Sequence record: PV419677.1
Source of the DNA: a phage
Direction: 5' to 3' (one strand)
DNA: 64,000 nucleotides
Positions 7,114-64,000 of this stretch are shown piece after piece. Position 1 is the stretch's first letter, and the number at the start of each line of letters is the position of its first letter. A program made the position numbers and the translations under genes. Below the pieces are notes generated by a model. It saw only the letters and a program-made list of their open reading frames with translations. It was not told where the DNA came from and searched no databases.

Positions 7114-7632
7114 TTAATAACCCCGGTCCTGACGAGCGAAGTTTTCAGCATTTTTCAGGTAATACAGTTTAAAGATTTCTTCTGCTGACAGACCAAGACC
7201 ATGGAACATGTTCAGAACAAAGTGCAGGATGTCAATCATCTCAAATTTAATTTCGAGCTGGTCTTCAGGAGACAACTCATCAATACGACGATTACGGAAT
7301 TCAGCATGTTGGGCTTTCCACGGTTTCCAACAACTTGAGGCTGCTTTCTCGCCATTAGACATACCCCCGAGAGAAGTCAGAAGTTCACGGAATTCATCAT
7401 CGACATAATCTTTCTGGTTGCGAAGCCATGCAACAACATCACCTGCAGTAGCCAATTCATCTGGATGTGAGTTATATTCAGGTTTTTCGGTAGCCAGACG
7501 AACTTGCAATGATTTCTGCATATCAAGCATAATCTGCAGCGGGTCAATACCTTTTGTAATTGCATTGTCATAAGCCAGAGCAGCTTTATCAACGCCAGCA
7601 ATCAGTTGTGAACATTCATTAAAATGAGCCAT
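7114..7632 (-). CDS. 56: dCTP pyrophosphatase gp56 (MazG-like)
   Basis: MAHFNEC start at ATG 7630-7632 with AAGGA SD; about 172 aa; position next to soc. Confidence 0.75.
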   Translation of the reverse strand: MAHFNECSQLIAGVDKAALAYDNAITKGIDPLQIMLDMQKSLQVRLATEKPEYNSHPDELATAGDVVAWLRNQKDYVDDEFRELLTSLGGMSNGEKAASSCWKPWKAQHAEFRNRRIDELSPEDQLEIKFEMIDILHFVLNMFHGLGLSAEEIFKLYYLKNAENFARQDRGY

Positions 7633-7671
7633 TATATTTTTCCTTATCAATTCATGTTATTTTGTATGTTA

Positions 7672-7697
7672 ATTATATCATATTGGTTTGAAGCATA
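7672..7697 (-). promoter_or_regulatory. putative MotA-dependent middle promoter upstream of gene 56
   Basis: minus strand TTATGCTTCAAA (MotA-box-like TGCTTCA) 11 nt upstream of TATAAT. Confidence 0.45.
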
Positions 7698-7717
7698 AAT
7701 ACACGGAAGGGGGATAT

Positions 7718-7915
7718 ATGCTCAAACTATCTAGTCTAATTCAAGCCATCAAAGGCAGTCGTAAGCGAACGATTCTGGTCCTTTCGATACTCTGTTTAGT
7801 TCTACTCTGGAACTTCGTTGTTGCCCCTGTTGCATTGACACATGGTGTTATATTACCAGTCATTGCACTCGAATCAGTTGTAGATATTTTACTGGCATTA
7901 ATCGGCCTTATATAG
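7718..7915 (+). CDS. small hydrophobic membrane protein (opposite strand)
   Basis: ATG at 7718 preceded by GGAAGGGGG SD; 65 aa, two predicted TM helices; sits in the 56-61 intergenic gap. Confidence 0.4.
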   Translation: MLKLSSLIQAIKGSRKRTILVLSILCLVLLWNFVVAPVALTHGVILPVIALESVVDILLALIGLI

Positions 7916-7918
7916 ATG

Positions 7919-7940
7919 GAATAATGTGAATATTATTCCA
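7919..7940. terminator. hairpin between convergent gene ends (possible bidirectional terminator)
   Basis: perfect 8-bp inverted repeat GGAATAAT...ATTATTCC. Confidence 0.35.
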
Positions 7941-8033
7941 TCGGATTTGGAAATTAACCAGTAAGAAAGACAAGAAACATCATGGGCTTTTTAGCTCTTG
8001 ATGTTTTTCTGCGGAACTTACCGGAATTCCTTC

Positions 8034-11866: not shown

Positions 11867-13306
11867 TTAAAATTTCATTTGAGCAGCAAGGTCATCCAGG
11901 TCGCTCCTGTTGACCCTGGTTTGTCGATTCATTTCGGCCTGGCGATTCATCTCACCGGTGGCTTCTTTAACCGTAGGGCCTTGTTTAGGAGCCGAATCAT
12001 CATCAACCTCATACCAGCGCTGATTACCTTTCTTAACACCCATCTTGAATTTATTATAGTAGTTCTTATCACCATAACGAGACTTAAGCTGTTTGATTAA
12101 CTGCAGCCCCATTTGAGCGAATTCTTCGGTCTCAACAACACCCAACATAAAGTCAGCCGTGTGAGCAATACCAAAGGATTCTGCAATGTCAGCCATATCA
12201 ATCTCGGCTGCAACGTTAGCGCCCCTGGTTGTCTGCGCTGCAGTCCACAAGACCACATTTTTCTCAACTGCCAACCCACGAAGTTCTTCTGCAACCATCT
12301 TAATCAGACCGTAACTGTTTTCGGTAAACGTTTTCAGTCTTGAGCTTGCACAGATTGCCAGGTAGTCAACAATAATCACATCCGGTACAAACCCTTGCTT
12401 CAGTTTGTATTCGTTCAGTAATGCACGGAAAGTATCCGCATGAGCACCACCAGTTGGATATTGTTTTATCTTCAGAGTCCCAAGAGTCCCGGAAGCACGC
12501 CATTTTTCCATCTTAGCTTTATATTCTGCCCATGATATATGACCTTCATCAATATCATCCAGAGACACATCCAGCAAGTTGGCATCAATACGTTTGGCAC
12601 ATACTTCTTCGGCCATTTCCATGCTTATATAAAGAACGTTATGACCAGTCTGAAGATAGTCAGCCGCTAACGAACAAAGTCCTAGAGATTTCCCGACGTT
12701 TGTCCCGGCCAGTAAAACGTTCTCTGTACCATACTCAACTCCACCCTTCGTGATTTTATTCAGGATGTTAATGCGGAACGGAACCTTTTTCGATTTGTTC
12801 AGATAAGTCTGGAATCGAGCTTCGTAATCGTTTAACCAGTCATGGCCCAGGGCAGAGTCAAAACAGATAGATAATGCATCACGCATGATATCAGGGATAG
12901 CACCAATATCCGGGATTCGTTTATCACGTTTATCTTTCGGAAGTTCGGCATTGCTCTGGATTTCGATAATCCTGGATGTAGCATTGAACATCGCAGACTT
13001 CTGTACATACTTCTCGGTTTCTCTAACCAACCATTCCTGGTCTTCTGGAGTATCGGCCAAGACTCCTAAGAGTTTCTTGGTGCCTTCATATTCAACTTCA
13101 GAAAGGTCAGAACTGTCGAGCGCGATATCAAGTGCAGTCTTAGTTGGCACCGCCTGATATTCTTTTACGTGTTCGTTAATCGTATTAAAAAGGGTCTTCG
13201 CTGGACCCTTTTCAAAATATGTGCTATTCAGATATGGCCAGACTTTAACAAAATATTCCTTGTTAAAGAGCAGCTGGGATAAAATAGTTTCTACCACTTC
13301 CACCAC
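11867..13306 (-). CDS. 41: replicative DNA helicase gp41 (DnaB-like)
   Basis: 479 aa; Walker A GTNVGKS; colinear with remembered T4 gp41. Confidence 0.9.
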   Translation of the reverse strand: MVEVVETILSQLLFNKEYFVKVWPYLNSTYFEKGPAKTLFNTINEHVKEYQAVPTKTALDIALDSSDLSEVEYEGTKKLLGVLADTPEDQEWLVRETEKYVQKSAMFNATSRIIEIQSNAELPKDKRDKRIPDIGAIPDIMRDALSICFDSALGHDWLNDYEARFQTYLNKSKKVPFRINILNKITKGGVEYGTENVLLAGTNVGKSLGLCSLAADYLQTGHNVLYISMEMAEEVCAKRIDANLLDVSLDDIDEGHISWAEYKAKMEKWRASGTLGTLKIKQYPTGGAHADTFRALLNEYKLKQGFVPDVIIVDYLAICASSRLKTFTENSYGLIKMVAEELRGLAVEKNVVLWTAAQTTRGANVAAEIDMADIAESFGIAHTADFMLGVVETEEFAQMGLQLIKQLKSRYGDKNYYNKFKMGVKKGNQRWYEVDDDSAPKQGPTVKEATGEMNRQAEMNRQTRVNRSDLDDLAAQMKF

Positions 13307-13635
13307 CTCTTTTTCATTTTAATCTTATCAATTTCATCTTGTATTTGCATTGTAACACACTTTTCTACATGCACTGCAAGCTCCGCTTTGCGGTCTTCAG
13401 AAGGGGTGCCGAAATCAACTGAAACTTTTCCCGATGGTTCAATTTTAATTCCGGTTACGTACACAATGTGATTGGACCCATCAGGGAGTGATAACAGAAT
13501 TTCCTGCCGTACAGTTCCCATGGATTGCCGGATAATCTCCAAACTTTTTTCGTAGTAAGGTACAGAAGGAGCCTTAGCTCCCTCCGCATCTTTCTCGAAA
13601 TTATCTAAATCAGATAAATCGATATCATTCATCAA
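13291..13635 (-). CDS. hypothetical protein at the gene 40 position
   Basis: 114 aa between uvsX and 41; called by position only. Confidence 0.4.
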   Translation of the reverse strand: MMNDIDLSDLDNFEKDAEGAKAPSVPYYEKSLEIIRQSMGTVRQEILLSLPDGSNHIVYVTGIKIEPSGKVSVDFGTPSEDRKAELAVHVEKCVTMQIQDEIDKIKMKKRWWKW

Positions 13636-14803
13636 GGTCTTCCATCATATCTAAATCGTTTTCGATATCTGCCGCAGATGGTTTTGCCTTACCTTCGGGA
13701 GCAGAGTATTTTTCAACCTTGGAGGCAATAAGCGCATCAACCTCGGCGTCAACAACAGCATTGCTATCGATTGCACCCAGCTGGTAATGTCGTTTGATTG
13801 CATCACGGAAAGGTTCGTGCTTGAACAACGGACCCCAGAATTCGGTACAGTTAGTATCTTTTGCACGCCATGATTTTTCTTCGCGGACCATTTCACCGGT
13901 CTCAACATCAAGATATTCACGGTTATACCAACCAACTTTCGGTTTCACCACAAATCCGATTTCCATTGCCATATCAAGCAGGCCAGAATACGGGTCAATA
14001 CCCCCATCGAATTTTACATCAATGAAGAATTTACTTTTCTCTTTGACCATACGAGATTTTTCGGCGTTCAGAACAAATTGGAAACCTTCAAGTTCTTTAC
14101 CGGTTTCTTTAATCTGGCGTTTGCCGATAATGAATACGGTGTCCGCAGAATACATAACACCTGTACCACCGGTCATAACGGTTTTGCTGTACATCTCAAT
14201 CGTCTCGATTGTATGGTTAACCGCGACACAAGGAATATCCTTGATACTAAAATATGGGGTAACAATACGGAACAGAGATTTCAGGGATTTAGCACGAGTC
14301 ATATCACCAACGACTTTTTCGTTCATCGCATCTTCTGTTTCTTTTTTCGACGCCATGTTACCGATTGAGTCAATAAAGATAATGACTTTTTCACCGCGCT
14401 CAATTGCTTCAAGCTGGTTAACCATATCAACTTTCAATTGTTCAACCGACTGGATTGGTGTGTGGATAACACGCTCCGGGTCTACTTTCATTGCACGCAG
14501 ATAGGCCTCTGTGATACCAAATTCTGAATCGTAGAACAAACAGATTGCGTCGGGGTATTTGTTCATATATGCAGAGACCATCGTTAAACCCATATTGGAT
14601 TTAAAGTGTTTTGACGGACCAGCAAAAATAGTCAAACCTGACTGCATACCACCATCTAGTGCACCGCTGATTGCAATGTTCAGCATCGGGATTTTTGTAC
14701 GAACTACATCTTTATCATTAAAGAACTTGGACTTGGTAAGAGTCGCGGTCATTTTGGATGTAGAAGCTTTAATCAAACGGGATTTCAAATCTGCAATAGA
14801 CAT
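13625..14803 (-). CDS. uvsX: UvsX recombinase (RecA-like)
   Basis: 392 aa; near-colinear with remembered T4 UvsX (KSRLIKASTSK, GPSKxFKSN). Confidence 0.9.
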   Translation of the reverse strand: MSIADLKSRLIKASTSKMTATLTKSKFFNDKDVVRTKIPMLNIAISGALDGGMQSGLTIFAGPSKHFKSNMGLTMVSAYMNKYPDAICLFYDSEFGITEAYLRAMKVDPERVIHTPIQSVEQLKVDMVNQLEAIERGEKVIIFIDSIGNMASKKETEDAMNEKVVGDMTRAKSLKSLFRIVTPYFSIKDIPCVAVNHTIETIEMYSKTVMTGGTGVMYSADTVFIIGKRQIKETGKELEGFQFVLNAEKSRMVKEKSKFFIDVKFDGGIDPYSGLLDMAMEIGFVVKPKVGWYNREYLDVETGEMVREEKSWRAKDTNCTEFWGPLFKHEPFRDAIKRHYQLGAIDSNAVVDAEVDALIASKVEKYSAPEGKAKPSAADIENDLDMMEDLDE

Positions 14804-14888
14804 TCATTTTTTCCATAGGCACCATTATATTTTTCTCACAGGTTTAAGATAGGATAATTATATCACTGTATTTTTAGAGCAATTAATG

Positions 14889-15419
14889 TTAGTTAATACC
14901 TTGGCGTGCTTTCTCTTTAGCTACACATTTATTAATATAGCTCAGACGGTTTTGAGCAGAACGCTGATACATATCACGATACTCATTAGCTTTTGGAGAA
15001 CCAGCCTCTGCTGCCTGATAAGCTTCCGCGCGCATGATGTTTATCTGCATATTGATGTATGACATGCAGACCTGTGAAATCTGGTTAACAGTATCCAGGT
15101 CATTTTGGCGCTTGGTTTCTGCTTCCAGTTTAGCAATGATTTCGTCATGCTTCGCAGCTTGTTCGCGTTTGTACTCAATTTCACGTTGAGCATATTTCGC
15201 GCAGTTATTTCCACATTGATTGTTGTCGCGTTTGTAGATAAGTCCAGTACCACCTTTGAAATCAAAGGAACCATTATGCACCTGACGGTCTGCAGCAATT
15301 CGCGCTTTACCAATCTCATTGGCATTAACAACATCGCCCTGGTAAGCACAACCAGATAGCAGCATAACAGCTGCGATAGCTAACTTTTTCATTGTATTTT
15401 CCTCAATTAAAACATTCAT
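14889..15419 (-). CDS. putative lipoprotein
   Basis: 176 aa; signal peptide ending LSGC; occupies the slot where T4 carries beta-gt and 42. Confidence 0.5.
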   Translation of the reverse strand: MNVLIEENTMKKLAIAAVMLLSGCAYQGDVVNANEIGKARIAADRQVHNGSFDFKGGTGLIYKRDNNQCGNNCAKYAQREIEYKREQAAKHDEIIAKLEAETKRQNDLDTVNQISQVCMSYINMQINIMRAEAYQAAEAGSPKANEYRDMYQRSAQNRLSYINKCVAKEKARQGIN

Positions 15420-15542
15420 AGCGGGCTTGGAGTCCCAAAAATATCCAACCCAAAATTAAAGTTGGAGTCATATGTGGAGTCATTATTGCCCAATAGATTG
15501 ACATACTAAAAAATGCAATCAGTACAATAATTGTAATTATCT

Positions 15543-15785
15543 TCATTTGGTTTCCTTGATGATAATTACATGTGCATTTGATTTACGCTCAGCAACGAGT
15601 GCCCAGATAAATGCAATAAACCATCCGACCATTGTCCAACCTAACAGGAGGTTAACAAAGAAGATTCCGCAATTACTTTTGGTTCCTCGCAGTAGCGCGA
15701 TAATCCACGGCAGAAAATATGCCAGTGCAGCCAGGAAGAAAGAACCAGCACCAAGAACAACAGTACCTGCAATTAATGTTTCCAT
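15543..15785 (-). CDS. imm: superinfection immunity protein Imm-like
   Basis: 80 aa two-TM protein with NLLLGWTxVGW...IWAL motif; position upstream of gene 43. Confidence 0.6.
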   Translation of the reverse strand: METLIAGTVVLGAGSFFLAALAYFLPWIIALLRGTKSNCGIFFVNLLLGWTMVGWFIAFIWALVAERKSNAHVIIIKETK

Positions 15786-15857
15786 TTTAATATCCTTAAT
15801 TTAATCATCAGTAGTTGATGGAGTAATCATACGGCAATCCTTTGCTGTTGTAAACAC

Positions 15858-17267
15858 TTAAAAATCAAACATATCAAAAAGAGATGCTTTTTTCTCGTAA
15901 TCAACCTTAGCTGCTTCAGAGAACCCTGTTAACGGTTTGACAAAAGTCTTCTGGAACAGTGTGTTGTAGTCCATCCACTGCAAGACTTGGTCACGGATTT
16001 CAATCGGGAGTTCAATCCCAGATGGCCATGCAATCACGGTTTCACCAAACGGGTTGCCGACTTTAAGAGGAAGTACATACACCTTTTCCCCTTCCATGAT
16101 TTGTGGAACAGTCTTCAGACCTTTAGTTGCACGCATATATGCAAGCACACCTTTGATATGAGCCGGGCACTTAAATCCAGGGAAACCACCCTCATTATAT
16201 TTCTGAATGTTGTTAACCGATGATACACCTGCGATGGTCATGTAGTTAAGCTCATTAAATTCCTTATTGAATTCCTTGAAGTATGTCTGCAGAGATTCTT
16301 CACCTTCTTGCAGCATGCGACGGATACATTCTTTCAGAGCTTTCTGACATGCTTTTGGTGTGCTCGACTTTTGAGTTTCCAGACCCATGATTTTCAGTTT
16401 CGGAACAGCATATCGTGTGCCTTCCATATCGTACACATTCAGAGCATAACGCTTCTTCGCTGTCCAGAATCCACCAACACCTTTAGAACCAAGCGGAGGA
16501 CATGCAATCGCTTCACGGTCCATAAACATAAGGTGCTGTTTGTTGTTCATGTATTCAGCCAGTTCACGGAAAGCTTTATCGATTGCCGGTTCCAGACGGT
16601 CTTTCGCAAACTTGTCCATGAAGTCAACCAGGTGGTTTGTATCGCGGAATTTCGATTCGCCACCAACCTTTTTAATCAGGTTATCGCACTGGATATAAAT
16701 GGAGTCAGTATCGCCATAGAATACATATGTTTCACCACTTGTACCACAAACACTATCAAAATATTCGTTAACTTTACGCTCAATCCACTGCAATGCAAGT
16801 TGTCCGAAAGATGTAATCGCGGTTGCATTTCGCAGGTCAAAGTAACGGAACCAGATATTTCCCACAATTTTGTTCAGTTGAAGTCGTTAATTTCAACCCG
16901 GAATTATATCCAGCTGCATGTTGCCATGCAGAGCAGACTATATCATCATCTTTCGATGCCATGCGCTTCCAGCCACTTGGCTGTACTCCTTTCGGATAGT
17001 CGTTGCACGTTCCTATAATAGGCTTCGCTCAGGATTGTCTCATAGAGATGTCCCCTGAATTCACATGGTTTAAAGTGCGCCGGAATACTTGGTTAACGCA
17101 CCATAACAACTGTTGATAAGCAATTTGCGGTTAATCTGTGCAGTATTTGCCGCAATTTCTGCCATTTGCGAATTATGCAAATGACTTTCCAAATCCGCCC
17201 TTGATAATGTTTTTAAATATGCAATTTGCGAATCATCAAAATCTATATTATAATCAATATTCATCAT
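15858..17267 (-). CDS. 43: DNA polymerase C-terminal subunit gp43B, two exons: join(15858..16864, 17096..17267) if the intron is spliced
   Basis: exon 1 encodes motif B KLLINSCYGAL, exon 2 encodes GNIWFRY... and motif C YGDTDS; both in the same frame, separated by 231 nt with stops. Confidence 0.75.
16865..17095 (-). other. putative ORF-less group I intron in gene 43
   Basis: exon ends in U pairing with G of an internal GCGCAC guide; R-like CAACGACUAU and S-like GAUAUAGUC can form P7; GNRA hairpin CUGCAUG-GCAA-CAUGCAG; last nucleotide G. Confidence 0.6.
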
Positions 17268-18082
17268 TTATTCCTACAGTTATCAAAATGCCAACGTTTC
17301 ATGCCTGCTAATATACCTTCTTTTCCACAATGTGGACAAACTGCTTTAACCTCTTTTGCTTGTTTCCAATATTCCTTTCTGGCATCAGAAATAGCTTGAT
17401 TGTGTTCATCTGAATTTTTGTGTCCCAATCTGGTTTTAACGATATCTGGATTTTTAGCAACACGTTCTTTCATAAACTCAGATTTCGCTGCACGCATTTC
17501 TGGTGTCCAGGCATCGGAGCATTTTTGTTTGTGGTCGTCGGATATAGTTCCATTTTTCAGCACAGACTCATTGTTCTTATAATGTTCAATTAAACTTTGT
17601 GAACGTTTTTGACAAGTTTCTACCGAGTGTTTTGTTCCAGTATTTTTAATTGAGGCGATTTTAAAATTATCAATTGAAATTTTATTGTAATAATCTGGAT
17701 TTTGGGCCCGGGTATATTTGATACTATCGGAAACCTTTTTGGCAACTACTGGATTATGCATCGCATTTGGTAAATTTAAAGAATTGACATAATCCCACCC
17801 ACCTTTACCACCTGGGGTTAAATTATATGTGTCAGTACGTGTGATAAATTCATTATCAACTAATTTGGCTTCAAGTGCATATGCATCATCTTCGTTATCA
17901 AATTCAGCAATGATTGATTTGACCAGGTTATGCTTGCCATATTTTTCTTTCGCAGCTTTCACAATGGGACCCGAACCCAGATAATCATCCAACAAATTAT
18001 AAGATTCACATTTATGAACTCCAATGTAAATCTTATCGTTCACTAAATTTTTAATTTGATAAACAGTGTATACATTTTTCAT
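17264..18082 (-). CDS. GIY-YIG homing endonuclease (seg-like) inserted in gene 43
   Basis: 272 aa; N-terminal VYQIKNLVNDKIYIG, NLTPGGKGG; C-terminal zinc finger CPHCGKEGILAGMKRWHFDNC; own SD AAGGAG. Confidence 0.7.
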   Translation of the reverse strand: MKNVYTVYQIKNLVNDKIYIGVHKCESYNLLDDYLGSGPIVKAAKEKYGKHNLVKSIIAEFDNEDDAYALEAKLVDNEFITRTDTYNLTPGGKGGWDYVNSLNLPNAMHNPVVAKKVSDSIKYTRAQNPDYYNKISIDNFKIASIKNTGTKHSVETCQKRSQSLIEHYKNNESVLKNGTISDDHKQKCSDAWTPEMRAAKSEFMKERVAKNPDIVKTRLGHKNSDEHNQAISDARKEYWKQAKEVKAVCPHCGKEGILAGMKRWHFDNCRNK

Positions 18083-18104
18083 AATGTCTCCTTAATTTAA
18101 AAAT

Positions 18105-18138
18105 ATTTTAGCGCGCTTCCTTGCGCTTGTACAACTTA
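18105..18138 (-). promoter_or_regulatory. promoter-like element upstream of the gene-43 HEG
   Basis: TTGTACAA -35, 18-nt spacer, TAAAAT -10. Confidence 0.35.
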
Positions 18139-19659
18139 AAGATGGTTTAAAAGGTCTTTAATCAATTCACTATTACGTTGTGCCGCCAACATCTTTTTCT
18201 TTTCGGTTTTTCGTTGATTAAAAACTTTCTCAACTTCTGTCGGAATAATACCTGCAACATCTTTAAAATACATCATGCCATTTGGAGCACAACTAAATGT
18301 ATCAGATGGACGGTCAGCAGTTCCTGCGATGTATTCATACATCGGCGCAGGAGCAAATGAACCGGCAATCGTTTCTGGACTGATGTTAATCTGTCGGATG
18401 ATGCTCGGATACAGAGATGTCAAGTCACAGCTCATAACGTATTTGTATGCGTTCGGAATCGGTTCCTTAACAAATGCACCAGGGAATGATTGACGAACAT
18501 GCGATTTGGTTTCCGGAATGACTTTGTTTTGAGTCTTCAGGCTGTTAAAGATAATCGCATCCCAAGTTTTGATTGGGCTGAATACAGACTGAATCTGCAT
18601 TTTTGCGTAATAACCCATTGACTGGCTAAGGTTAATAAACTGGCGCTTACGGTCAATCTGTACAACACGATAAACATCGATGATGTTATAAGAAATATAC
18701 CGTTGGTGATTTGATTCACGCAGTTTAGAAATCGGACCATCATACGGGAGTTTACCAACACCCAGCTCAGATTCCGCAACATAATCCAACGAATAAGACG
18801 GTTGGTTTGTGAAGCTGAACTTTTTATACAGGTCCAGATAATCCAGAACAGAGATACCCAGAATCTGAATGATTTCTTGTTCTTCACCAAAGCCGTTGTT
18901 AATTACTTTAACTTTTGTACGACGATGTGGGCTCAGACGTTTTGCTGTGGCTTCACCAAATACATTTTTAAGGCGGTTGTAGATATACGGAATATCAAAC
19001 TTCTCGATGTTCCAACCAGTTAACATAACCGGAGTTTTCTCGTTCCAGAATACCAAATACTGCTGGAGCATTTCTTCTTCTGAATCGAAAGCCATATAAA
19101 CAATTTTTTCCAGGATTTCTTCAGGGACTTCATCGCCGCCATCTTCTTGCAGCTTGGCAGCAATATCAATAGACCATTGCTCCACAGTGGCGTATGGTGA
19201 GCTCAAAAGGTCAAAGACATAGAATTTATCGTCTACCGAATCATAGTGCGTCAGGGCATCAATAGGGTGACGTGCTTCAGACGGCTCAGGGAACCCATCC
19301 GGAGATGTCACCTCGATATCGAAGTTAGCCACACGGATTTTACTTGAATCGTATTTGATTTCGTGTGGATAACGGTCGGACAAGTATGCGAGTTTAAAGT
19401 CATCCATACCCATAGCTTCGAGACCCATGTCATTCATTCGCTTCATCCACTGGGATGCATCACGCATGGAATCGAATTCTTTTTTCACACAACCTTTATT
19501 ATAGATGTCTGTATACTTTGCAGCCTGGTCTTCGCGAGCATGCATAAACAAGCATGGAGCATAAGGGATTTCACGAACACGTTCATGACCATTCTTGTCA
19601 ATGTATCGTTCAAGCAGATTGTCACCGATTTGTTCGATAGTTAAATAAAATTCTTGCAT
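18136..19659 (-). CDS. 43: DNA polymerase N-terminal subunit gp43A (N-terminal and 3'-5' exonuclease region)
   Basis: 507 aa; N-terminus MQEFYLTIEQIGDNLLERYID matches remembered T4 gp43; ends in-frame with stop before the HEG. Confidence 0.9.
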   Translation of the reverse strand: MQEFYLTIEQIGDNLLERYIDKNGHERVREIPYAPCLFMHAREDQAAKYTDIYNKGCVKKEFDSMRDASQWMKRMNDMGLEAMGMDDFKLAYLSDRYPHEIKYDSSKIRVANFDIEVTSPDGFPEPSEARHPIDALTHYDSVDDKFYVFDLLSSPYATVEQWSIDIAAKLQEDGGDEVPEEILEKIVYMAFDSEEEMLQQYLVFWNEKTPVMLTGWNIEKFDIPYIYNRLKNVFGEATAKRLSPHRRTKVKVINNGFGEEQEIIQILGISVLDYLDLYKKFSFTNQPSYSLDYVAESELGVGKLPYDGPISKLRESNHQRYISYNIIDVYRVVQIDRKRQFINLSQSMGYYAKMQIQSVFSPIKTWDAIIFNSLKTQNKVIPETKSHVRQSFPGAFVKEPIPNAYKYVMSCDLTSLYPSIIRQINISPETIAGSFAPAPMYEYIAGTADRPSDTFSCAPNGMMYFKDVAGIIPTEVEKVFNQRKTEKKKMLAAQRNSELIKDLLNHL

Positions 19660-23658: not shown

Positions 23659-23895
23659 TTCAATTAATCAAAGTATTCATATGCGAACCAGGCATTGTGT
23701 CTGTTCGCGATTATTTTAACATATTCTTCACCGAAAGCGTTTTGCAAGTCACGTTCAGTGACAAGGTGTTCATCTTTCGAAAAGGTATTAACTAACACAT
23801 ACCGTTTAATTTCAGGGACAGCCAGTAAATGCTGCCCGGTTAAAAAATTGCTCATAAATAATATTATCCGTTGCAGTATCAAACAAGGGTCTGAT

Positions 23896-24612
23896 ATGAA
23901 TTATAACATCATTTACCAAAAGCTTATTAGCAGAGCATTGAATCGCAAATTAACCACATACTCTGAAAGCCATCACATTATACCCCGTTGTATGGGTGGG
24001 GCTGACGACGCTTCAAATCTTGTTGATTTAACTCCCGAGGAACATTTCGTTTGCCATCAACTGTTGGTCAAAATGCATCCAAATAACGCTTCTTTGGTCT
24101 ATGCCGCGCGCATGATGACAGTTTCTGCACCAAATGCCGACAGAAGCAAAAATAAATTATTTGGATGGCTTCGTCGTAAAAACTTGGAAGCTCAACAAAA
24201 TAAAATTTTCTCCGATGAAACCAGAAAGAAAATGTCAGAATCCGCCAAATTAAAACCGAGAGTCGAATGTCCACACTGTGGAAAAACCGGTCTCGCTGGC
24301 AATATGAATCGTTGGCATTTTGATAACTGTTCCAAAGGTCCAAACAAGGTTGTTCATACTATTCCGGAAAAGCAAAAGCAAAAAATTTCAGTAGGTTTAA
24401 AACAAGCTAAACATGAAATTTTAAATTGTGAATTTTGCGGGCTTGAAGGTAAAAAGTGTGTTATATCCACTCACCGACAATTCTGCAAATCCAATCCAAA
24501 CCGGAAGAAAAAGGTGGACCCCAAAATTCAGTGTCCACACTGTAATGTAGTCAGTACGCCAGCTAATATGAAACGTTGGCATTTTGATAACTGCAAAATG
24601 AAGCCTCAATAA
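23896..24612 (+). CDS. HNH homing endonuclease with three C-terminal zinc-finger repeats
   Basis: start trimmed to ATG 23896; HHIIPRCMGGADDASNLVDLTPEEHFVCH; three copies of a CPHCGK...RWHFDNC-type module; only large plus-strand gene in the region. Confidence 0.7.
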   Translation: MNYNIIYQKLISRALNRKLTTYSESHHIIPRCMGGADDASNLVDLTPEEHFVCHQLLVKMHPNNASLVYAARMMTVSAPNADRSKNKLFGWLRRKNLEAQQNKIFSDETRKKMSESAKLKPRVECPHCGKTGLAGNMNRWHFDNCSKGPNKVVHTIPEKQKQKISVGLKQAKHEILNCEFCGLEGKKCVISTHRQFCKSNPNRKKKVDPKIQCPHCNVVSTPANMKRWHFDNCKMKPQ

Positions 24613-26312: not shown

Positions 26313-26550
26313 CCTTGATGCATGATTCAGCCATATGAATTAATGTCTCTGGAGTATCATCTTCCATTACATTAAAACTAAATTCTACGGCCCAATCGGT
26401 GACTACATAGACTTTGATAAGTTGACCGGTTTCCCGGTCAGTGATAGCTTCAAACCAATACTTAATAGTATTTGGTTGATTATCGTCGTCAACCACATCA
26501 CATTCGCGGATATGTTCAAGCCCCGCTTCATTAAAATCATAAAGTCTCAC
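26287..26550 (-). CDS. hypothetical protein
   Basis: 87 aa acidic ORF between 46 and 47. Confidence 0.4.
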   Translation of the reverse strand: MRLYDFNEAGLEHIRECDVVDDDNQPNTIKYWFEAITDRETGQLIKVYVVTDWAVEFSFNVMEDDTPETLIHMAESCIKDAYYDEDF

Positions 26551-27593
26551 GGTTGCACCTCAAGATATAATTTGTTGGCCAATGCTTTAAGAGCTTTTGA
26601 TTCTTTCTCATTGGTGTCAGGTAATGCATCAATATATTCTGCCATCATATCAGTTAAGCGTTTTATGTCTAACTCTTCTTCGGAGTCAGTCGTATCAACA
26701 CTGTTATCAACCTTATTGACAACACGCAATTCATGTACACGCTTTTCTAATTCAGATTCGAACTTGGTCAGGTCTTTATCGACTTTTTCTACAATAACAC
26801 GGACTGATAAGTCTTTGAAGTCGTCGTAGTTAATAGTTTCGTTTGGATAGAAAATCTTCCGATGCCAGGTGGTTTCATTCGGAATAAATTTCATCTCTTC
26901 GGTTTCTGTATCAAATTCCCAGAATCCGCGCGGGTCATTCTCATCACCTGCTGTTAATGTCCATGGTGTCCCGATGTACTTAACGTTTGCAGCTTCTGAA
27001 ATGGTATGAAAGTGACCAGACCAAACTTGCTTGTACTTCTTAAGGAAATCAGGCTCAAGCCCGTGGGATTTCAATCCTTTATAGAAATAAAACCCGGTTA
27101 ATTCCCAGTGACCGATGCAATATTCAGCCCCAGAAGTTTTGATGTGTTGATGAATGTCAGTTGCGTTCTCGTCGCACATCCATGGAATCATATCAATCTG
27201 GCAACCGTCAAAATCAACAGTCGTTGGCTTATCATAGATTTTAACATGGTCATACTTATTCAGGAGTTCAGTGATAGCATTAGGATGAATCTTATTCTTC
27301 AGATTCATGTCATGGTTCCCGACTATCGTGTGCATAGTAATTCCTGCTTCACGAAGGAGTTCCATAATCTCACGGCTGAATTCCATTGTCTTATGCGTTA
27401 CGGCCTTACGGACGTCAAAAATATCACCATATTGAATCCAGACTTTAATCCCATTCGCTTTGGAATATGCAATCGCCTGTAAAATACCATCGCGTTGAAT
27501 GTTTTGAGCCCATGGGTCGTCAGCTTTGACACCCAAGTGCCAATCACCTAAATTTAAAATTTTCATAAGCCAAGCGCCGTTATCGCAGTGCAA
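26547..27593 (-). CDS. 47: recombination nuclease subunit gp47 (SbcD/Mre11-like)
   Basis: 348 aa; phosphoesterase motifs GDWHLG, GDIFD, GNHD. Confidence 0.9.
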   Translation of the reverse strand: MHCDNGAWLMKILNLGDWHLGVKADDPWAQNIQRDGILQAIAYSKANGIKVWIQYGDIFDVRKAVTHKTMEFSREIMELLREAGITMHTIVGNHDMNLKNKIHPNAITELLNKYDHVKIYDKPTTVDFDGCQIDMIPWMCDENATDIHQHIKTSGAEYCIGHWELTGFYFYKGLKSHGLEPDFLKKYKQVWSGHFHTISEAANVKYIGTPWTLTAGDENDPRGFWEFDTETEEMKFIPNETTWHRKIFYPNETINYDDFKDLSVRVIVEKVDKDLTKFESELEKRVHELRVVNKVDNSVDTTDSEEELDIKRLTDMMAEYIDALPDTNEKESKALKALANKLYLEVQP

Positions 27594-27749
27594 AATAAAA
27601 TTATTGAAATGAACCCGTCAGGAGTAGAAAAGAATCCTATCCAACAAGCTCGTGTGAATGTGTAGAATGCCATGAATAACACGACATATCCTAAAAATAA
27701 TTCCATATGTTCTCCTCAGTTGGTTCATTTTATCATCCCGAATATAAAG

Positions 27750-27776
27750 CAAAAAGGAAGCACTAGGCTTCCTTTC
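27750..27776 (-). terminator. intrinsic terminator hairpin
   Basis: minus strand AGGAAGC-CTAGT-GCTTCCT followed by TTTTTG. Confidence 0.45.
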
Positions 27777-28017
27777 CAATTAATACACCGTACAGAGGTT
27801 CGTGAGAAGACCTGAACTTGATAGGCTTATAGGTAATAGTACCTTCATTTTCTGCTTTAATGCGAGCGGCTTCAAATTGAAGTATCATCTCATTTTTGTC
27901 AGATTTAATCTTATCAAAATCCGTCGAATTCGTCATTCATAAAACCTCTTAAACTTTTTCGTATTCGTCATGCATAAGCTTAAAAATCCGGGTGTTCGTC
28001 TTCAAAGCAACCGATAT

Positions 28018-28218
28018 TCATCGCTGCCACCATTTCTTAAGTTGATGTGAATCCACCCAAACCTTGGCCACGGGCTCAATCTGAAAAATACCATCAGAAT
28101 ACTGCCCAACCATTTTATATTCGGTTTCAGTCTGCTTGATACAGATATTACCATATGAGCGAAGTCTGAAAGCGGCTCCAACAAGAAGCCGTTTAAAAGG
28201 TTTATTTACTAATGCCAT
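28018..28218 (-). CDS. hypothetical protein
   Basis: 66 aa ORF, ATG at 28216-28218 next to upstream stop. Confidence 0.4.
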   Translation of the reverse strand: MALVNKPFKRLLVGAAFRLRSYGNICIKQTETEYKMVGQYSDGIFQIEPVAKVWVDSHQLKKWWQR

Positions 28219-28513
28219 TTACGATTTCCCAAATTTGTTTGCGAGTAGTTTCCCACATCAACTTAATCAGGTCTTCCGTAACTGGTTGGCGGTAAATTCC
28301 ACGCAGTTTAACTAAAGCATATTTGTATGCTTCAAAATTGTTTTCCAGCACTGCCCCTTGAGCATGCTTATTCAGTCGTGCAATTTCACGAGCATTCTTT
28401 TTCAGAATCTTTGCTGCTTGACTCTGTGCTTCGAGTGCGTTCGCTTCTTCGAGACGTTCCTGTGCTTCTTCAATCTGCTTATCGGTCAGTTGAGAAATAT
28501 CTGGAGCTTGCAT
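28202..28513 (-). CDS. hypothetical protein
   Basis: 103 aa ORF. Confidence 0.45.
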   Translation of the reverse strand: MQAPDISQLTDKQIEEAQERLEEANALEAQSQAAKILKKNAREIARLNKHAQGAVLENNFEAYKYALVKLRGIYRQPVTEDLIKLMWETTRKQIWEIVNGISK

Positions 28514-28514
28514 A

Positions 28515-28766
28515 TTAATCCTTGGGAGTTAACTCAATTGTAAAATATAGATTAGCATTATCCACATGATAACGGTAATCAACGTTATTATCCGGTGAAG
28601 TAAATTCCAGATTCCGGACGTTTAAAGGGTCGATATCAATTGGAAGACCTTTTATGTCTCGCAGATAAAGTTTAATGAAATATGGGAGCGCAGTAAAGTC
28701 TTCCTCGATTTTATCTAAAAAATCGGTAATATCAAATTGATGTTCCATATAAAAAATCCAAATCAC
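28515..28766 (-). CDS. hypothetical protein
   Basis: 83 aa ORF. Confidence 0.45.
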
Positions 28767-29289
28767 CTTCTTTATCTTTGGCGCTCTTATCAGACCCTGG
28801 CGCTTTAACTAAAGAGGATTCGTACTGTGTCATTTTGTCATAGATGTCCTGGATAAATGTTTCATCAGCCAGAGCCACCATATCGTCGTCACGTGAATCA
28901 TACACGTTGTGAACGAAGTAGCTATATTTCTTTGCCATTTCTTTACGTTCTTTTTTGATACGCTGAACGAAAGCATTGAAGCAAGCCATTGTTATGTAAG
29001 CATGTGGATTATCGTATTTTGTTTCGTCGAAGTTATGAAGACCTTTTATTGCGGCCTCAATTCCGTCTGCAATCATTTCTTGCTTCCAGGATTGGGTATA
29101 TCCGGAGAAGTTGAAACGTTTGCTAAGACCTTCGGCTATAAGCATAATTGCCAGACCAATAACATCGTTCTGGCGAATAATTTTATTCGGGTCGGTGTTC
29201 GCATTCAGCTTCTGTTTCCACTCCGAAATAGCTTTCAGAAGCTCTTTATTATTTACATAGTTATTCTTGGTTAATTTAATTTCGTTCAT
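28732..29289 (-). CDS. 55: late sigma factor gp55
   Basis: 185 aa; NYVNNKELL...[38 protein letters not shown] matches remembered T4 gp55. Confidence 0.85.
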
Positions 29290-29337: not shown

Positions 29338-29604
29338 TTAGCGAAGTAAACAGTAAGCCTGGAAGACCTTCTCCATAATTGCCTTAAATTCGTGGATGTC
29401 AATATAAGGGATAACCTCCGCATCACTAATGAATTCCATCAAACGGTCATGCTCGTTGCGGTATTGTCCTTCATTCAGCATACCGATATGGGACTCCCAA
29501 GAGCCATACCCTTCTGCATGCGGGAAGAATGTTATTTTCATGAATTCATCCACCCAAAATGTTCCCAGGTCCTGGATGGATATCATTGTATGATTGATGT
29601 GCAT
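29338..29604 (-). CDS. hypothetical protein
   Basis: 88 aa ORF. Confidence 0.4.
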   Translation of the reverse strand: MHINHTMISIQDLGTFWVDEFMKITFFPHAEGYGSWESHIGMLNEGQYRNEHDRLMEFISDAEVIPYIDIHEFKAIMEKVFQAYCLLR

Positions 29605-32441: not shown

Positions 32442-32912
32442 TTAATCATGTTTCCACACCCCATCGGTATTTGACCAAAGTCGCTGATTATCTGACCCTC
32501 GCCACAGTTTTTTGGTCGGAAGATTTTTCTCATACTTCCCATCAATAATAACATCAACATATTTAAGCATTTCTAGTTGTTTAATATCTTCAAACTTATA
32601 TCCTGTCCACAACCAAATGCTTTTATTGGGATAAAGATTTTTAATAGTTTGAACCACAGAGTGAATAACATCTCGGTTATCAGGATAGAGAGGGTCTCCT
32701 CCGGTTATAGTTAATCCTTCTATATAATCATTATTCAAACATTCAATTAATTGTTCTAGTGTTTCGCCAGTGAATGGAATACCATTTCTAGCGTTCCATG
32801 TTGATTTATTATAACACCCTTCGCATTTATGCAAACAACCTGTAACGAAAAGAACGACCCTGCATCCAGGGCCATTCACAAAATCGCAAGGATAAAATCT
32901 ATCATAATTCAT
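32442..32912 (-). CDS. nrdG: anaerobic ribonucleotide reductase activating protein NrdG (radical SAM)
   Basis: 156 aa; cysteine cluster CLHKCEGC. Confidence 0.85.
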   Translation of the reverse strand: MNYDRFYPCDFVNGPGCRVVLFVTGCLHKCEGCYNKSTWNARNGIPFTGETLEQLIECLNNDYIEGLTITGGDPLYPDNRDVIHSVVQTIKNLYPNKSIWLWTGYKFEDIKQLEMLKYVDVIIDGKYEKNLPTKKLWRGSDNQRLWSNTDGVWKHD

Positions 32913-57593: not shown

Positions 57594-57617
57594 TTAGGGG
57601 GCAAAGCCCCCTTTATC

Positions 57618-58715: not shown

Positions 58716-58719
58716 TCAT

Positions 58720-63480: not shown

Positions 63481-63481
<1 letters not shown>

Positions 63482-64000
63482 TATATTACCTTATTAATTT
63501 TATCAAAAAGTTCTTCGAGTGTGCCATTGTTTTTAATAACAATGTCACTAGCTAGTGGTGGAAGTCCAGCTTCCGTAATGTGTGTATCAGTAGAATGATT
63601 TGCTTCATCGCGTTCTACAAAGATTATTGTAGCACCCATCGCCCGAAGCGAATCAAGTTCGTTCTTTTGACGAACATCTGGGACAACGTAATATTTATAT
63701 CCAGAATAGAGGTTGTCAAGATAATCGCACGCAAAAGTTTTAATCCAAAACATGCTGTCGAACTCTGTACAAACGATGTCAGTTCCAAGGGTCTGCATGA
63801 AACGTCTAACTGTCCAGGGCTCAACATTATTTAGTGTGTGAAATTCAATGATTTTACGAACCATATCTGGATTCGGAAGGTCAAGATTGTATTGTTGTTT
63901 CAACCATTCAAGAGCATCAACCAGAAGAATATAAGCTTCGGTGTTGTTCATTATCAAGGTTTTTTCACGGTCATAACCTTGTCCATCAAAATTTTCCAGG
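63481..64000 (-). CDS. 1: dNMP kinase gp1, partial (5' end beyond window)
   Basis: C-terminal region WxVRRxMQxLGTD...DTHITEAGLP matches remembered T4 gp1; frame open upstream of the listed Met to the window edge. Confidence 0.75.

What the first reader, a model, noticed from the sequence alone, without database searches (positions are those of the whole stretch)
14889..15419. No glucosyltransferase or dCMP hydroxymethylase genes at their T4 positions
Between uvsX and imm, where T4 has beta-gt and 42, there is only a 176-aa lipoprotein. Between 47 and 55 (27594-28731), where T4 has alpha-gt, there are only small ORFs. A gp56-like dCTPase is still present, so the DNA modification state of this phage is unclear from this window.
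Basis: inference. Interest (0 to 1): 0.45.

Follow-up and report, generated by a model that had tools for sequence, protein, structure and literature searches.

The report
T4-like phage lacking cytosine-hypermodification genes
This T4-like phage (genus Gaprivervirus) really has lost the genes that T4 uses to hydroxymethylate and glucosylate its cytosines, and its relatives carry a thymidylate synthase with the one amino-acid change known to redirect that enzyme to dCMP, so the DNA probably contains 5-methylcytosine instead.

Summary
Between uvsX and imm there are only a lipoprotein gene (14889-15419) and a 47-codon ORF. Between genes 47 and 55 there are only homologues of T4 47.1 and a-gt.2 to a-gt.5. 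No gp42, beta-gt or alpha-gt homologue exists in the 64 kb window or in the complete genome of the relative VR7. A gp56 dCTPase is present.

The window belongs to a Gaprivervirus (95-98.5% identical to VR7, SP18, YenM_P8). The lipoprotein does not replace anything: it belongs to the T4 Imm.1 family (phrog_1754). In the sister genus Dhakavirus (JS98), a five-gene cytosine-modification module sits between uvsX and this lipoprotein gene. That module is missing here.

Two papers already note that Gapriverviruses lack gene 42 yet keep alc, denB and the dCTPase, and they leave the base unknown.

My new inference: the only ThyA-family enzyme of all Gapriverviruses examined ("Td", outside this window) has Asp at E. 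coli position 177. This is the classic dUMP-to-dCMP switch. Leu143 and Asp169 are kept, which predicts 5-methyl-dCMP as the product. Acinetobacter phages 133 and ZZ1 and Morganella phage MP1 have the same Asp and also carry alc; their lack of gene 42 rests on the literature plus a partial check of phage 133. RB49, JS98 and T4-type Td proteins have Asn.

Published restriction digests report that VR7 DNA has "modified cytosines". This needs LC-MS confirmation.

The parts
13625..14803 (-). uvsX (RecA-like recombinase). This is the upstream landmark of the locus where T4 has segA, beta-gt and 42, and where JS98 has a five-gene cytosine-modification module.
   Evidence: 392-aa ORF. It is 98% identical to VR7 UvsX and 79% identical to T4 UvsX.
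14804..14888 (-). 85-bp spacer between the lipoprotein gene and uvsX. This is the junction where the modification genes are missing. It holds promoter-like hexamers for uvsX.
   Evidence: Sequence read. In JS98 about 4.2 kb (orf38-orf42) lie at this junction. In T4, segA, b-gt and 42 lie here.
14889..15419 (-). Imm.1-family lipoprotein gene (176-aa ORF; probable start at 15392, giving 167 aa). It has a signal peptide with lipobox LLSG|C, a conserved N-terminal region with a CGNNC motif, and a helical C-terminal half. Its function is unknown.
   Evidence: phrog_1754, E 1.7e-46. T4 Imm.1 hits the same family at 6e-43 and JS98 orf43 at 9e-52. The N-terminus aligns to T4 Imm.1. Homologues occur in 122 phage records, all T4-like. 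The AF2 model has pLDDT 70 with residues 65-167 helical. Fold searches gave no informative match.
15403..15546 (-). 47-aa hydrophobic ORF, homologue of the small ORF between 42 and imm in T4 (called 42.1 in VR7).
   Evidence: phrog_3610, E 1e-25. 96% identical to VR7 gp42.1, with a 53% tblastn match at T4 position 26319.
15543..15785 (-). imm, the superinfection immunity membrane protein.
   Evidence: Pfam PF14373, 9.5e-18. phrog_1039.
15826..15854 (-). Sigma-70-like promoter (TTTACA-17-TATGAT) upstream of imm, 42.1 and the imm.1-like gene.
   Evidence: Consensus scan, 10 of 12 matches. The number of sites in the region is not above chance, so only the position argues for function.
7114..7650 (-). 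Gene 56, dCTPase/dUTPase (probable start at 7632). It depletes dCTP and supplies dCMP.
   Evidence: 68% identical to T4 gp56 over 172 aa, E 1e-77. Pfam dUTPase_2. phrog_173.
7651..8033 (.). The interval between genes 56 and 61 where T4 carries dam. No methyltransferase gene is here, only a 75-aa plus-strand ORF (7688-7915).
   Evidence: T4 map. ORF list. phrog_2024, unknown function.
27563..28766 (-). The interval between genes 47 and 55. It holds a 47.1-like ORF (27563-27706) and a-gt.2-like (27763-27936), a-gt.3-like (28018-28218), a-gt.4-like (28202-28513) and a-gt.5-like (28515-28766) ORFs. There is no alpha-gt and no mobB.
   Evidence: ORFs. For the four a-gt.2 to a-gt.5-like ORFs: 93-99% identical to the VR7 a-gt.2 to a-gt.5 homologues and 41-58% to the T4 counterparts. 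The 47.1-like ORF was assigned by position and by its PHROG family, not by those identity figures. PHROG families of unknown function.
63481..64000 (-). Gene 1, dNMP kinase. Only the C-terminal 172 codons are present because the gene runs off the window end. In T4 this kinase phosphorylates the modified dCMP.
   Evidence: The translation matches VR7 gp1 almost exactly and has no internal stop.

Best explanation
Shown. The window comes from a Gaprivervirus, a T-even relative. The cytosine-hypermodification module is absent from its usual place between uvsX and imm, and the alpha-gt slot between genes 47 and 55 is empty. What remains between uvsX and gene 43 is the envelope-related trio: an Imm.1-family lipoprotein, 42.1 and Imm. 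The rest of the 'exclude cytosine' machinery is kept. The gp56 dCTPase and the gp1 dNMP kinase are in the window. alc, denB and denA are present in the relative VR7.

Inferred. The lineage has not reverted to plain cytosine. It switched to 5-methylcytosine. Its only ThyA-family enzyme, the product of td at the conserved frd-td-nrdA locus outside this window, has Asp instead of Asn at E. coli position 177. That substitution turns thymidylate synthase into a dCMP methylase. The enzyme keeps Leu143, where hydroxymethylases have Asp or Glu. It keeps Asp169, where 5-hydroxycytosine synthases have Asn. All catalytic residues are also kept.

Proposed pathway. gp56 converts dCTP and dCDP to dCMP. Td(Asp177) with CH2-THF makes 5-methyl-dCMP, and Frd recycles the resulting DHF. 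gp1 and host NDP kinase make 5-methyl-dCTP. gp43 incorporates it. Alc and DenB then act on cytosine-containing host DNA only. dTMP would come from host ThyA, from residual dUMP activity of Td, or from deamination of 5-methyl-dCMP by Cd. This last step is speculative.
For: Identity of the phage:
- 33 Gaprivervirus records are colinear with 13000-16865 at 95-98.5% identity.

Absence of the known enzymes:
- No gp42, bgt, agt or JS98-orf39 homologue in the window or in the whole VR7 genome. None is annotated in VR7.

Module present in the sister genus:
- JS98 has orf38-orf42 (a ThyA-type enzyme, a kinase, an isomerase, a nucleotidyltransferase/kinase and a putative transferase) between uvsX and the lipoprotein orthologue.

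Td specificity residue:
- VR7 Td reads QRSVDVFLGLPFDIGSYG.
- All 17 further full-length Gaprivervirus Td sequences read have Asp177, Leu143, Cys146 and His147. They include SP18, VR25, VR26, CJ20, MN01, UPEC01 and YenM_P8, the closest relative of the window.
- The next 116 homologues (Tequatrovirus, Mosigvirus, Dhakavirus) all have Asn.
- VR7 has a single ThyA homologue.
- Catalytic residues are invariant.

Correlation across lineages:
- Acinetobacter phages 133 and ZZ1 and Morganella phage MP1 are flagged in PMC8056088 as lacking gene 42. The paper attributes DenB, Alc and dCTPase-dUTPase homologues to ZZ1 and 133; I saw alc and a dCTPase in 133 and alc in ZZ1 and MP1. All three have Asp177.
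- RB49 has C-DNA and no alc, and its Td has Asn.

Literature:
- N177D switches TS to dCMP and yields 5mdCMP (PMC8670742, section 11).
- L143D/E marks hydroxymethylases and D169N marks 5hoC synthases (PMC13326640).
- VR7 DNA 'has modified cytosines'. It was not classed as glycosylated, and only the T4147 control DNA was called hydroxymethylated (PMC6326788 text and Suppl. Fig. S4).

No rival enzyme:
- No DNA methyltransferase domain in the ten VR7 ORFs of 160 aa or more that lack a T4 name, nor in the window's unassigned ORFs.
Against: - The td gene is not in this window, and the window's own phage is not in the phage collection. The Asp177 allele is therefore inferred from relatives, although from all of them.
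- No enzyme assay or nucleoside analysis exists. The published VR7 digests say only 'modified cytosines'.
- In engineered E. coli and L. casei TS, the Asn-to-Asp mutants are (from memory of that literature) much slower than wild type, so activity in the natural enzyme is assumed.
- Converting the only phage TS removes the phage's own dTMP synthesis. This is tolerable, because T4 td mutants grow on thyA+ hosts (established knowledge), but it is untested here.
- Td is not unusually divergent between VR7 and JS98 (68.5%, against a range of 50-92% for other proteins). There is no extra signal of selection beyond the diagnostic residues.
- Whether Alc, DenB and gp56 spare 5mC-DNA and 5m-dCTP is unknown.
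Confidence: 0.65

Rival explanations
1. Plain cytosine DNA. The lineage simply lost its modification genes, as in RB49-type (Krischvirus) phages. gp56 then serves only as a dUTPase and dCMP supplier.
For: There is no gp42 or gt gene in the window or in VR7. gp56 is also present in C-DNA T4 relatives (PMC2993671 Table 4; PMC8056088). VR7 is fully restricted by BREX, like unmodified VpaE1 (PMC6326788).
Against: - VR7 keeps alc and denB, which in T4 act against cytosine DNA. RB49-type phages lack them (PMC12115623 Table 4).
- VR7 DNA was reported to have modified cytosines, on a dcm- host, with SalI and EcoRII as methylation-sensitive probes.
- Td has Asp177 in every Gaprivervirus, whereas RB49 Td has Asn.
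Confidence: 0.1
2. A different cytosine derivative. Either Td(Asp177) makes something other than 5-methyl-dCMP (for example 5-hydroxymethyl-dCMP), or a non-homologous, still unrecognised enzyme makes or further decorates the base. This is what PMC8056088 and PMC12115623 suspect.
For: - Both papers propose an unknown protein or base.
- Many ORFs of unknown function remain, including DUF7275/DUF7277 proteins.
- MP1's Asp177 enzyme is very divergent and has Val at position 147. Asp177 enzymes therefore need not all make the same product.
Against: - Leu143 and Asp169 are kept, which argues against hydroxymethyl and hydroxyl products by the published diagnostics (PMC13326640).
- In the same experiment that included T4 beta-glucosyltransferase treatment, VR7 DNA was not classed as hydroxymethylated or glycosylated.
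- No glycosyltransferase, sugar-nucleotide gene or methyltransferase was detected.
- The unassigned larger ORFs are shared with JS98 or RB69 or vary within the genus.
Confidence: 0.2
3. Post-replicative methylation. Cytosines are incorporated normally and then methylated at many sites by a phage DNA methyltransferase.
For: It would also give resistance to EcoRII and SalI.
Against: No methyltransferase domain was found in the window or in VR7's unassigned ORFs of 160 aa or more. Even dam is missing between genes 56 and 61. It does not explain why alc, denB and the dCTPase are kept, or why Td has Asp177.
Confidence: 0.05

Closest known systems
Xanthomonas phage XP12: complete replacement of C by 5-methylcytosine through a thymidylate-synthase-family dCMP methyltransferase
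   Same: The predicted chemistry and logic are the same. A ThyA-family enzyme acts on dCMP at the mononucleotide level (PMC5175136; PMC8670742). The canonical dCTP is removed, and no sugar is attached.
   Different: XP12 is an unrelated long-tailed Xanthomonas phage. Here the enzyme is the resident T4-type td gene at its normal frd-td-nrdA position, 64-69% identical to ordinary T-even Td proteins (68.5% for VR7 against JS98). It appears to have been repurposed by a few substitutions (N177D, A179G, A182G, and positions 148/149). The XP12 sequence was not compared here. 5mC in Gaprivervirus DNA is not demonstrated.
T4 glucosyl-hydroxymethylcytosine system (gp42, alpha-gt, beta-gt, gp56, gp1, Alc, DenB)
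   Same: The genome architecture and accessory machinery are the same: gp56, gp1, imm, 42.1, imm.1 and a-gt.2 to a-gt.5 in the window, and alc, denA, denB, cd, td and frd in VR7.
   Different: gp42, beta-gt, alpha-gt, dam and arn are absent.
Arabinosyl-5-hydroxycytosine system of RB69 and Dhakavirus (JS98), PMC13326640
   Same: JS98 is the nearest genus. The order uvsX, [module], Imm.1-like lipoprotein, small ORF, imm, 43 is the same apart from the module. The lipoprotein family is shared mostly with this group of phages.
   Different: The five-gene module (JS98 orf38-orf42, about 4.2 kb) is missing here. The Gaprivervirus ThyA homologue has Asp169, not the Asn that is diagnostic of 5hoC synthases.
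RB49-type (Krischvirus) T4 relatives with unmodified cytosine
   Same: No gene 42 and no glucosyltransferases, while gp56 and td are present (PMC2993671).
   Different: RB49 lacks alc and denB, and its Td has Asn177 (PMC12115623 Table 4). Gapriverviruses keep alc and denB and have Asp177.

Membership tests
T-even glucosyl-hmC DNA modification system | dCMP hydroxymethylase gp42 (ThyA family, Asp at 177 and Asp/Glu at 143) | tested here: not met
   tblastn with T4 gp42 gave no hit in the window (best E 2.1) and none in the whole VR7 genome.
T-even glucosyl-hmC DNA modification system | alpha- and/or beta-glucosyltransferase | tested here: not met
   No tblastn hit in the window or in VR7. The T4 positions hold only Imm.1-like/42.1 and 47.1/a-gt.2-5 ORFs.
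T-even glucosyl-hmC DNA modification system | dCTPase gp56 and dNMP kinase gp1 | tested here: met
   gp56 at 7114-7650 is 68% identical to T4 gp56. gp1 lies at 63481-64000 and is cut by the window end.
Arabinosyl-5-hydroxycytosine system (RB69/Dhakavirus) | 5hodCMP synthase (ThyA homologue with D169N), plus arabinosyltransferase and sugar-nucleotide genes between uvsX and imm | tested here: not met
   JS98 orf39 has no hit in the window or in VR7. Only 85 bp separate uvsX from the lipoprotein gene, against about 4.2 kb in JS98. Gaprivervirus Td keeps Asp169.
XP12-type 5-methylcytosine replacement via dCMP methyltransferase | ThyA-family enzyme with Asp at E. coli position 177 (dCMP specificity) | tested here: met
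   Met in all 18 full-length Gaprivervirus Td sequences read (VR7 plus 17 more), including the closest relative YenM_P8. The gene lies outside this window, so it was not seen for this very phage.
XP12-type 5-methylcytosine replacement via dCMP methyltransferase | Hydrophobic residue at position 143 and intact catalytic Cys146 (reductive methylation rather than hydroxymethylation) | tested here: met
   MALPPCH is conserved in all sequences. The diagnostic comes from PMC13326640.
XP12-type 5-methylcytosine replacement via dCMP methyltransferase | 5-methylcytosine replaces cytosine in virion DNA | not testable with these tools
   The only evidence is indirect. VR7 DNA 'has modified cytosines' and was not classed as glycosylated or hydroxymethylated (PMC6326788 Suppl. 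Fig. S4).
XP12-type 5-methylcytosine replacement via dCMP methyltransferase | The enzyme methylates dCMP in vitro | not testable with these tools
   No assay data were found in the searchable literature.
Unmodified-cytosine T4 relatives (RB49 type) | Absence of the cytosine-DNA-directed functions alc and denB, with an ordinary Asn177 Td | tested here: not met
   VR7 has alc and denB and Asp177. RB49 Td has Asn.
Imm.1 lipoprotein family (phrog_1754) | Full-length profile match plus a lipoprotein signal peptide with a lipobox Cys | tested here: met
   Window protein 1.7e-46 over residues 10-170. T4 Imm.1 6e-43. LLSGC lipobox and a shared N-terminus.

The most novel reading that the evidence does not exclude
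A whole genus of T-even-type coliphages (Gaprivervirus), and in parallel Acinetobacter phages 133 and ZZ1 and Morganella phage MP1, replaces cytosine with 5-methylcytosine. It would do so by a natural Asn177-to-Asp change in the resident thymidylate synthase, after discarding the hydroxymethyl/hydroxy-cytosine and glycosylation genes. If so, T4-like phages have a third, sugar-free cytosine-replacement strategy. That strategy would escape the defences that target hmC or glycosylated hmC. The phage's own dTMP synthesis would be rewired (host ThyA, or deamination of 5-methyl-dCMP).
Probability: 0.6. Interest if true: 0.72.

Novelty: new member of a known kind. Interest (0 to 1): 0.6.

Why it matters
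The bare observation, that Gapriverviruses lack gene 42 and the glucosyltransferases, is already in print. Two papers state that the nature of the DNA is unknown, and one of them declines to recommend these phages for therapy for that reason.

The Asp177 Td gives a concrete explanation that one LC-MS run can test. If it is right, several things follow:
- It adds 5-methylcytosine to the repertoire of T4-like phages.
- It shows a modification pathway being swapped by a point change in a housekeeping enzyme together with deletion of a gene module.
- It explains the retention of alc, denB and the dCTPase.
- It predicts sensitivity to McrBC- and MspJI-type defences, and resistance to defences specific for hmC or glucosyl-hmC.
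- It matters for sequencing, cloning, CRISPR editing and therapeutic use of these phages.

Tried and rejected
1. Looked for the missing enzymes elsewhere. T4 gp42, beta-gt and alpha-gt, the JS98 ThyA-type enzyme and E. coli ThyA were run by tblastn against the window and the whole VR7 genome. Only td was found.

2. Tested VR7ORF147c, annotated as 'cytidine/deoxycytidylate deaminase-like' (window 59635-60141), as a candidate. It has no Pfam hit and no H/CxE...PCxxC zinc motif in the sequence, so it was dropped.

3. Screened other non-T4 ORFs of the window and of VR7 for methyltransferase, glycosyltransferase or nucleotide-modifying domains. Only homing endonucleases, collagen, DUF7275/7277 and T5orf172 were found.

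4. Checked the ORF after gene 55, annotated 'anti-restriction nuclease' in EAWsc9 (window 29338-29604). It matches phrog_1822 of unknown function, so there is no support for that name.

5. Tried to obtain a function for the lipoprotein from structure. The alignment is shallow (9 sequences), the AF2 pLDDT is 70, and Foldseek against PDB and BFVD returned only the JS10 orthologue and generic helical hairpins.

6. Asked whether Td is unusually divergent relative to JS98. It is not: 68.5%, mid-range among 23 proteins.

7. Tried to read Kaliniene 2010 (the VR7 restriction data) and Hardy & Nalivaika 1992. Neither is held.

8. Searched the literature for a prior claim of 5mC in Gaprivervirus, ZZ1, 133 or T4-like phages. 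Nothing was found. This does not prove that none exists.
Full report
WHAT THE WINDOW IS

A 4-kb query around the finding (13000-17000) matches 33 phage records colinearly at 95-98.5% identity. They include Yersinia phage vB_YenM_P8, TH40, EAWsc9, SP18, VR7, VR20 and VR26. These records are classified as Straboviridae, Tevenvirinae, Gaprivervirus. All long ORFs lie on the minus strand in T4 order, from dexA (291-974) to gene 1 (63481 to the window end).

CHECK OF THE OBSERVATION

The order is gp41, gp40, uvsX (13625-14803), an 85-bp spacer, a 176-codon ORF (14889-15419), a 47-codon ORF (15403-15546), imm (15543-15785; Pfam PF14373, 9.5e-18), then gene 43. In T4 the same interval holds segA, b-gt and 42.

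Between gene 47 (26547-27593) and gene 55 (28732-29289) there are five small ORFs. One is 47.1-like by position and PHROG family. The other four are homologues of T4 a-gt.2, a-gt.3, a-gt.4 and a-gt.5. T4 a-gt and mobB are missing.

tblastn with T4 gp42, beta-gt and alpha-gt finds nothing in the 64 kb (best E about 1). gp56 is found at 7114-7650 with 68% identity over its full length and a Pfam dUTPase_2 match.

Two corrections apply. There is also a 47-aa ORF. The lipoprotein probably starts at its tenth codon (MKKLAIAAVMLLSGC), as annotated in VR7.

IS GENE 42 ELSEWHERE?

I fetched the complete VR7 genome (169,285 bp). No 42, a-gt, b-gt, dam or arn is annotated. tblastn with T4 gp42, bgt, agt and the JS98 ThyA-type enzyme gives no hit.

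VR7 does carry gp56, gp1, cd, td, frd, alc, denA, denB and ndd. This agrees with two papers. [quoted passage not shown] The raw observation is therefore already published for the genus.

WHAT THE LIPOPROTEIN IS

It matches phrog_1754 (1.7e-46). T4 Imm.1, a 125-aa lipoprotein encoded between imm and 43, matches the same family at 6e-43. JS98 orf43 matches at 9e-52. The N-termini align directly.

tblastn finds the family in 122 phage records, all T4-like:
- Gapriverviruses at 95% or more.
- VR25 at 77%.
- Dhakaviruses at about 50%.
- Serratia, Erwinia, Enterobacter, Kosakonia, Edwardsiella and Pectobacterium T4-likes at about 30-44%.

The conserved part is the N-terminal 80 residues: the lipobox, a GDVV..E.G.AR.AA stretch and a QCGNNCAKYAQRE motif. 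An AF2 model from a 9-sequence alignment has mean pLDDT 70 and a confident helical C-terminal half. Foldseek against PDB and BFVD returns only the JS10 orthologue.

The function stays unknown. From its position in an imm / 42.1 / imm.1 cluster behind a promoter-like site (15826-15854), and from its export signal, I infer with low confidence a periplasm-facing envelope or superinfection role. It is not a replacement for beta-gt or 42.

WHAT IS MISSING, SEEN FROM THE SISTER GENUS

In JS98 (Dhakavirus) the order is as follows:
- uvsX
- orf38 (RB69 047c-like)
- orf39 (RB69 048c-like ThyA homologue)
- orf40 (a kinase)
- orf41 (a sugar-phosphate isomerase)
- orf42 (557 aa, RB69 052c-like)
- orf43 (the lipoprotein)
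- orf44
- imm
- gene 43

PMC13326640 shows that RB69 gp48 is a 5-hydroxy-dCMP synthase. It also reports that this neighbourhood encodes arabinosylation of 5-hydroxycytosine in RB69, Dhakaviruses and others. Gaprivervirus is not in its list.

In the window the whole module of about 4.2 kb is absent and 85 bp remain. The simplest reading is loss of the module in the Gaprivervirus lineage. This is an inference: the direction of change was not tested phylogenetically.

THE KEY LEAD

VR7's only ThyA-family gene is td (HM563683 142489-143349), between frd and nrdA as in T4. Its translation reads ...MALPPCHLLYQF...WYQRSVDVFLGLPFDIGSYG....

Aligned with E. coli ThyA, the Asp falls on Asn177. Leu143, Cys146, His147, Gln165, Arg166, Ser167 and Asp169 are kept. 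So are Arg21, Glu58, Tyr94, Arg126/127, His207 and Tyr209.

A search of 5.8 billion proteins returned four Gaprivervirus-type clusters with Asp. The next 116 homologues (64-69% identical; Tequatrovirus, Mosigvirus, Dhakavirus) all have Asn.

All 17 further full-length cluster members read have QRSVDVFLGLPFDIGSYGTL. They include SP18, UPEC01, DK-13, VR26, P479, VR25, MN01, CJ20 and YenM_P8. Two alleles that are only 85% identical both keep it.

tblastn shows that exactly 33 phage records carry this Td type at 84% identity or more. This is the same number as the Gaprivervirus records.

Thirty-seven positions are fixed in Gapriverviruses and never seen in the other 116 sequences. They include N177D, A179G, A182G and positions 148/149 next to the catalytic Cys.

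WHY THAT RESIDUE MATTERS

- PMC8670742 (section 11) summarises Graves 1992, Hardy & Nalivaika 1992 and Liu & Santi 1992. [quoted passage not shown] In metaviromes, Asp177 marks contigs with modified cytosine.
- PMC13326640 adds two diagnostics. Hydroxymethylases have Asp or Glu at 143, where a bulky hydrophobic residue excludes water. 5-hydroxycytosine synthases have Asn at 169.
- Gaprivervirus Td has Asp177, Leu143 and Asp169. The predicted product is therefore 5-methyl-dCMP.
- This is the chemistry of the XP12 dCMP methylase (PMC5175136).

CORRELATION TEST

I checked the other T4 relatives that PMC8056088 flags as having no known cytosine-modifying enzyme. The paper credits ZZ1 and 133 with DenB, Alc and dCTPase-dUTPase homologues.

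| Phage | Td sequence at position 177 | Residue | Other observations |
|---|---|---|---|
| Acinetobacter phage 133 | LMRSVDVFLGKPFDIASY | Asp | alc and a dCTPase present; no gene 42 in the 100 of 160 kb examined |
| Acinetobacter phage ZZ1 | MRSVDVPLGMPFDIASY | Asp | alc present |
| Morganella phage MP1 (divergent homologue) | VYQRSADVPLGLNFDLIQAY | Asp | alc present |
| RB49 (cytosine DNA, no gene 42) | GLPFNVAS | Asn | no alc |
| JS98 and all T4-type phages | GLPFNIAS | Asn | have gene 42 or its 5hoC counterpart |

Asp177 in the resident ThyA homologue thus tracks the combination 'reported to lack gene 42 but alc kept' in at least three separate groups. For ZZ1 and MP1 the absence of gene 42 rests on the paper alone.

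EXPERIMENTAL HINT

Gordeeva et al. (PMC6326788) grew VR7 on BL21(DE3). They digested its DNA with Eco32I, MboI, EcoRII (blocked by Dcm-type methylation), SalI (blocked by CpG methylation) and Csp6I, with and without T4 beta-glucosyltransferase. They concluded that VR5 and T4 DNA are glycosylated, T4147 DNA is hydroxymethylated, 'and VR7 has modified cytosines' in unglycosylated DNA.

That wording fits 5mC but does not prove it. I could not see the gel.

RIVALS

- Plain cytosine (about 0.1) is contradicted by alc and denB, by the VR7 digests and by Asp177.
- Another derivative or an unknown enzyme (about 0.2) remains possible. However, no glycosyltransferase, sugar-nucleotide or methyltransferase domain was found in the unassigned ORFs. 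The larger unassigned ORFs are also shared with JS98 or RB69, or vary within the genus.
- Post-replicative methylation (about 0.05) has no candidate enzyme. Even dam is missing.

LIMITS

- td is outside this window, and this exact phage is not in the collection, so the allele is inferred from all relatives.
- Activity, product and the dTMP supply are inferences.
- Td is not exceptionally divergent from JS98 Td: 68.5%, in a range of 50% (Alc) to 92%.
- I found no paper claiming 5mC in these phages. The library is incomplete, and Kaliniene 2010 could not be read.

VERDICT

The absence itself is already known. The lipoprotein is an ordinary Imm.1-family gene.

The added value is a specific, apparently unpublished and easily testable explanation of the modification state. 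It proposes 5-methylcytosine made by a naturally specificity-switched Td, in a lineage that lost its hydroxy/hydroxymethyl-cytosine glycosylation module.

Noticed in passing
window 15858-19659 (minus strand): Gene 43 (DNA polymerase) is interrupted twice here, whereas VR7, EAWsc9 and P8 have one 904-aa ORF. The 43A ORF (19659-18136, 507 aa) ends with its own stop. A free-standing GIY-YIG homing-endonuclease ORF follows (18082-17264). Polymerase sequence then resumes at 17267 (...INSCYGAL). An ORF-less group I intron (Rfam RF00028, 17127-16914, 81 bits, E 4e-19) precedes the last exon (about 16865-15858, GNIWFRYFDL...). An intron next to a free-standing endonuclease gene looks like a 'collaborative homing' arrangement. 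Only partial matches exist in the phage collection (G2285, PSD2002).
   Followed up: partly
window 23695-24612 (+): A 305-aa HNH-type homing endonuclease ORF (phrog_655, 1.6e-67) lies on the opposite strand, inserted between rpbA and gene 46. It is absent from VR7, where the small gene 45.2 lies at this position.
   Followed up: partly
window 32442-34726: nrdG and nrdD (anaerobic ribonucleotide reductase; NrdD 98% identical to T4 over the aligned part) are present here and in EAWsc9 but absent from VR7. Gapriverviruses therefore differ in this module.
   Followed up: no
window 57021-59052: Four ORFs (190, 197, 142 and 110 aa; phrog_8788, phrog_8232 and others of unknown function) have no counterpart in VR7. 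Conversely, VR7 ORF135c, ORF148c (T5orf172 domain) and ORF149c are absent from the window. This is a variable region next to the tRNA genes (tRNA-Arg 60590-60664, tRNA-Met 60670-60746).
   Followed up: no
window 7651-8033: There is no dam methyltransferase gene between genes 56 and 61, where T4 has one. Only a 75-aa plus-strand ORF of unknown function (phrog_2024) lies there.
   Followed up: partly
L009 35516-36463 (phage 133), L012 33346-34278 (ZZ1), L013 37020-37859 (MP1): The thymidylate-synthase homologues of Acinetobacter phages 133 and ZZ1 and Morganella phage MP1 also have Asp at position 177. Petrov et al. 2010 (Table 4) list phage 133 as having a gene 42 allele. None is annotated or detectable in the 100 kb of phage 133 examined, so the Asp177 td may have been counted as gene 42.
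   Followed up: partly
L002 12637-13014 (T4 imm.1): T4 Imm.1 is labelled 'iduronate sulfatase' in NC_000866. It is a 125-aa lipoprotein of phrog_1754 with no sulfatase features, so this is probably an annotation error that has propagated.
   Followed up: partly
L005 36496-37243 (VR7 alc region): Alc is the most divergent of 23 proteins compared between VR7 and JS98 (50% identity). VR7 also has a second short Alc-like ORF (ORF243c). This may reflect adaptation of Alc to a different modified base.
   Followed up: no
Td clusters P0001 versus P0004 (outside the window): Gapriverviruses that are about 95-98% identical in the uvsX-43 region carry two td alleles that are only 85% identical at the protein level (SP18/VR7 type versus P8/TH40/CJ20 type). 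Both have Asp177. This suggests allele exchange at the td locus within the genus.
   Followed up: no
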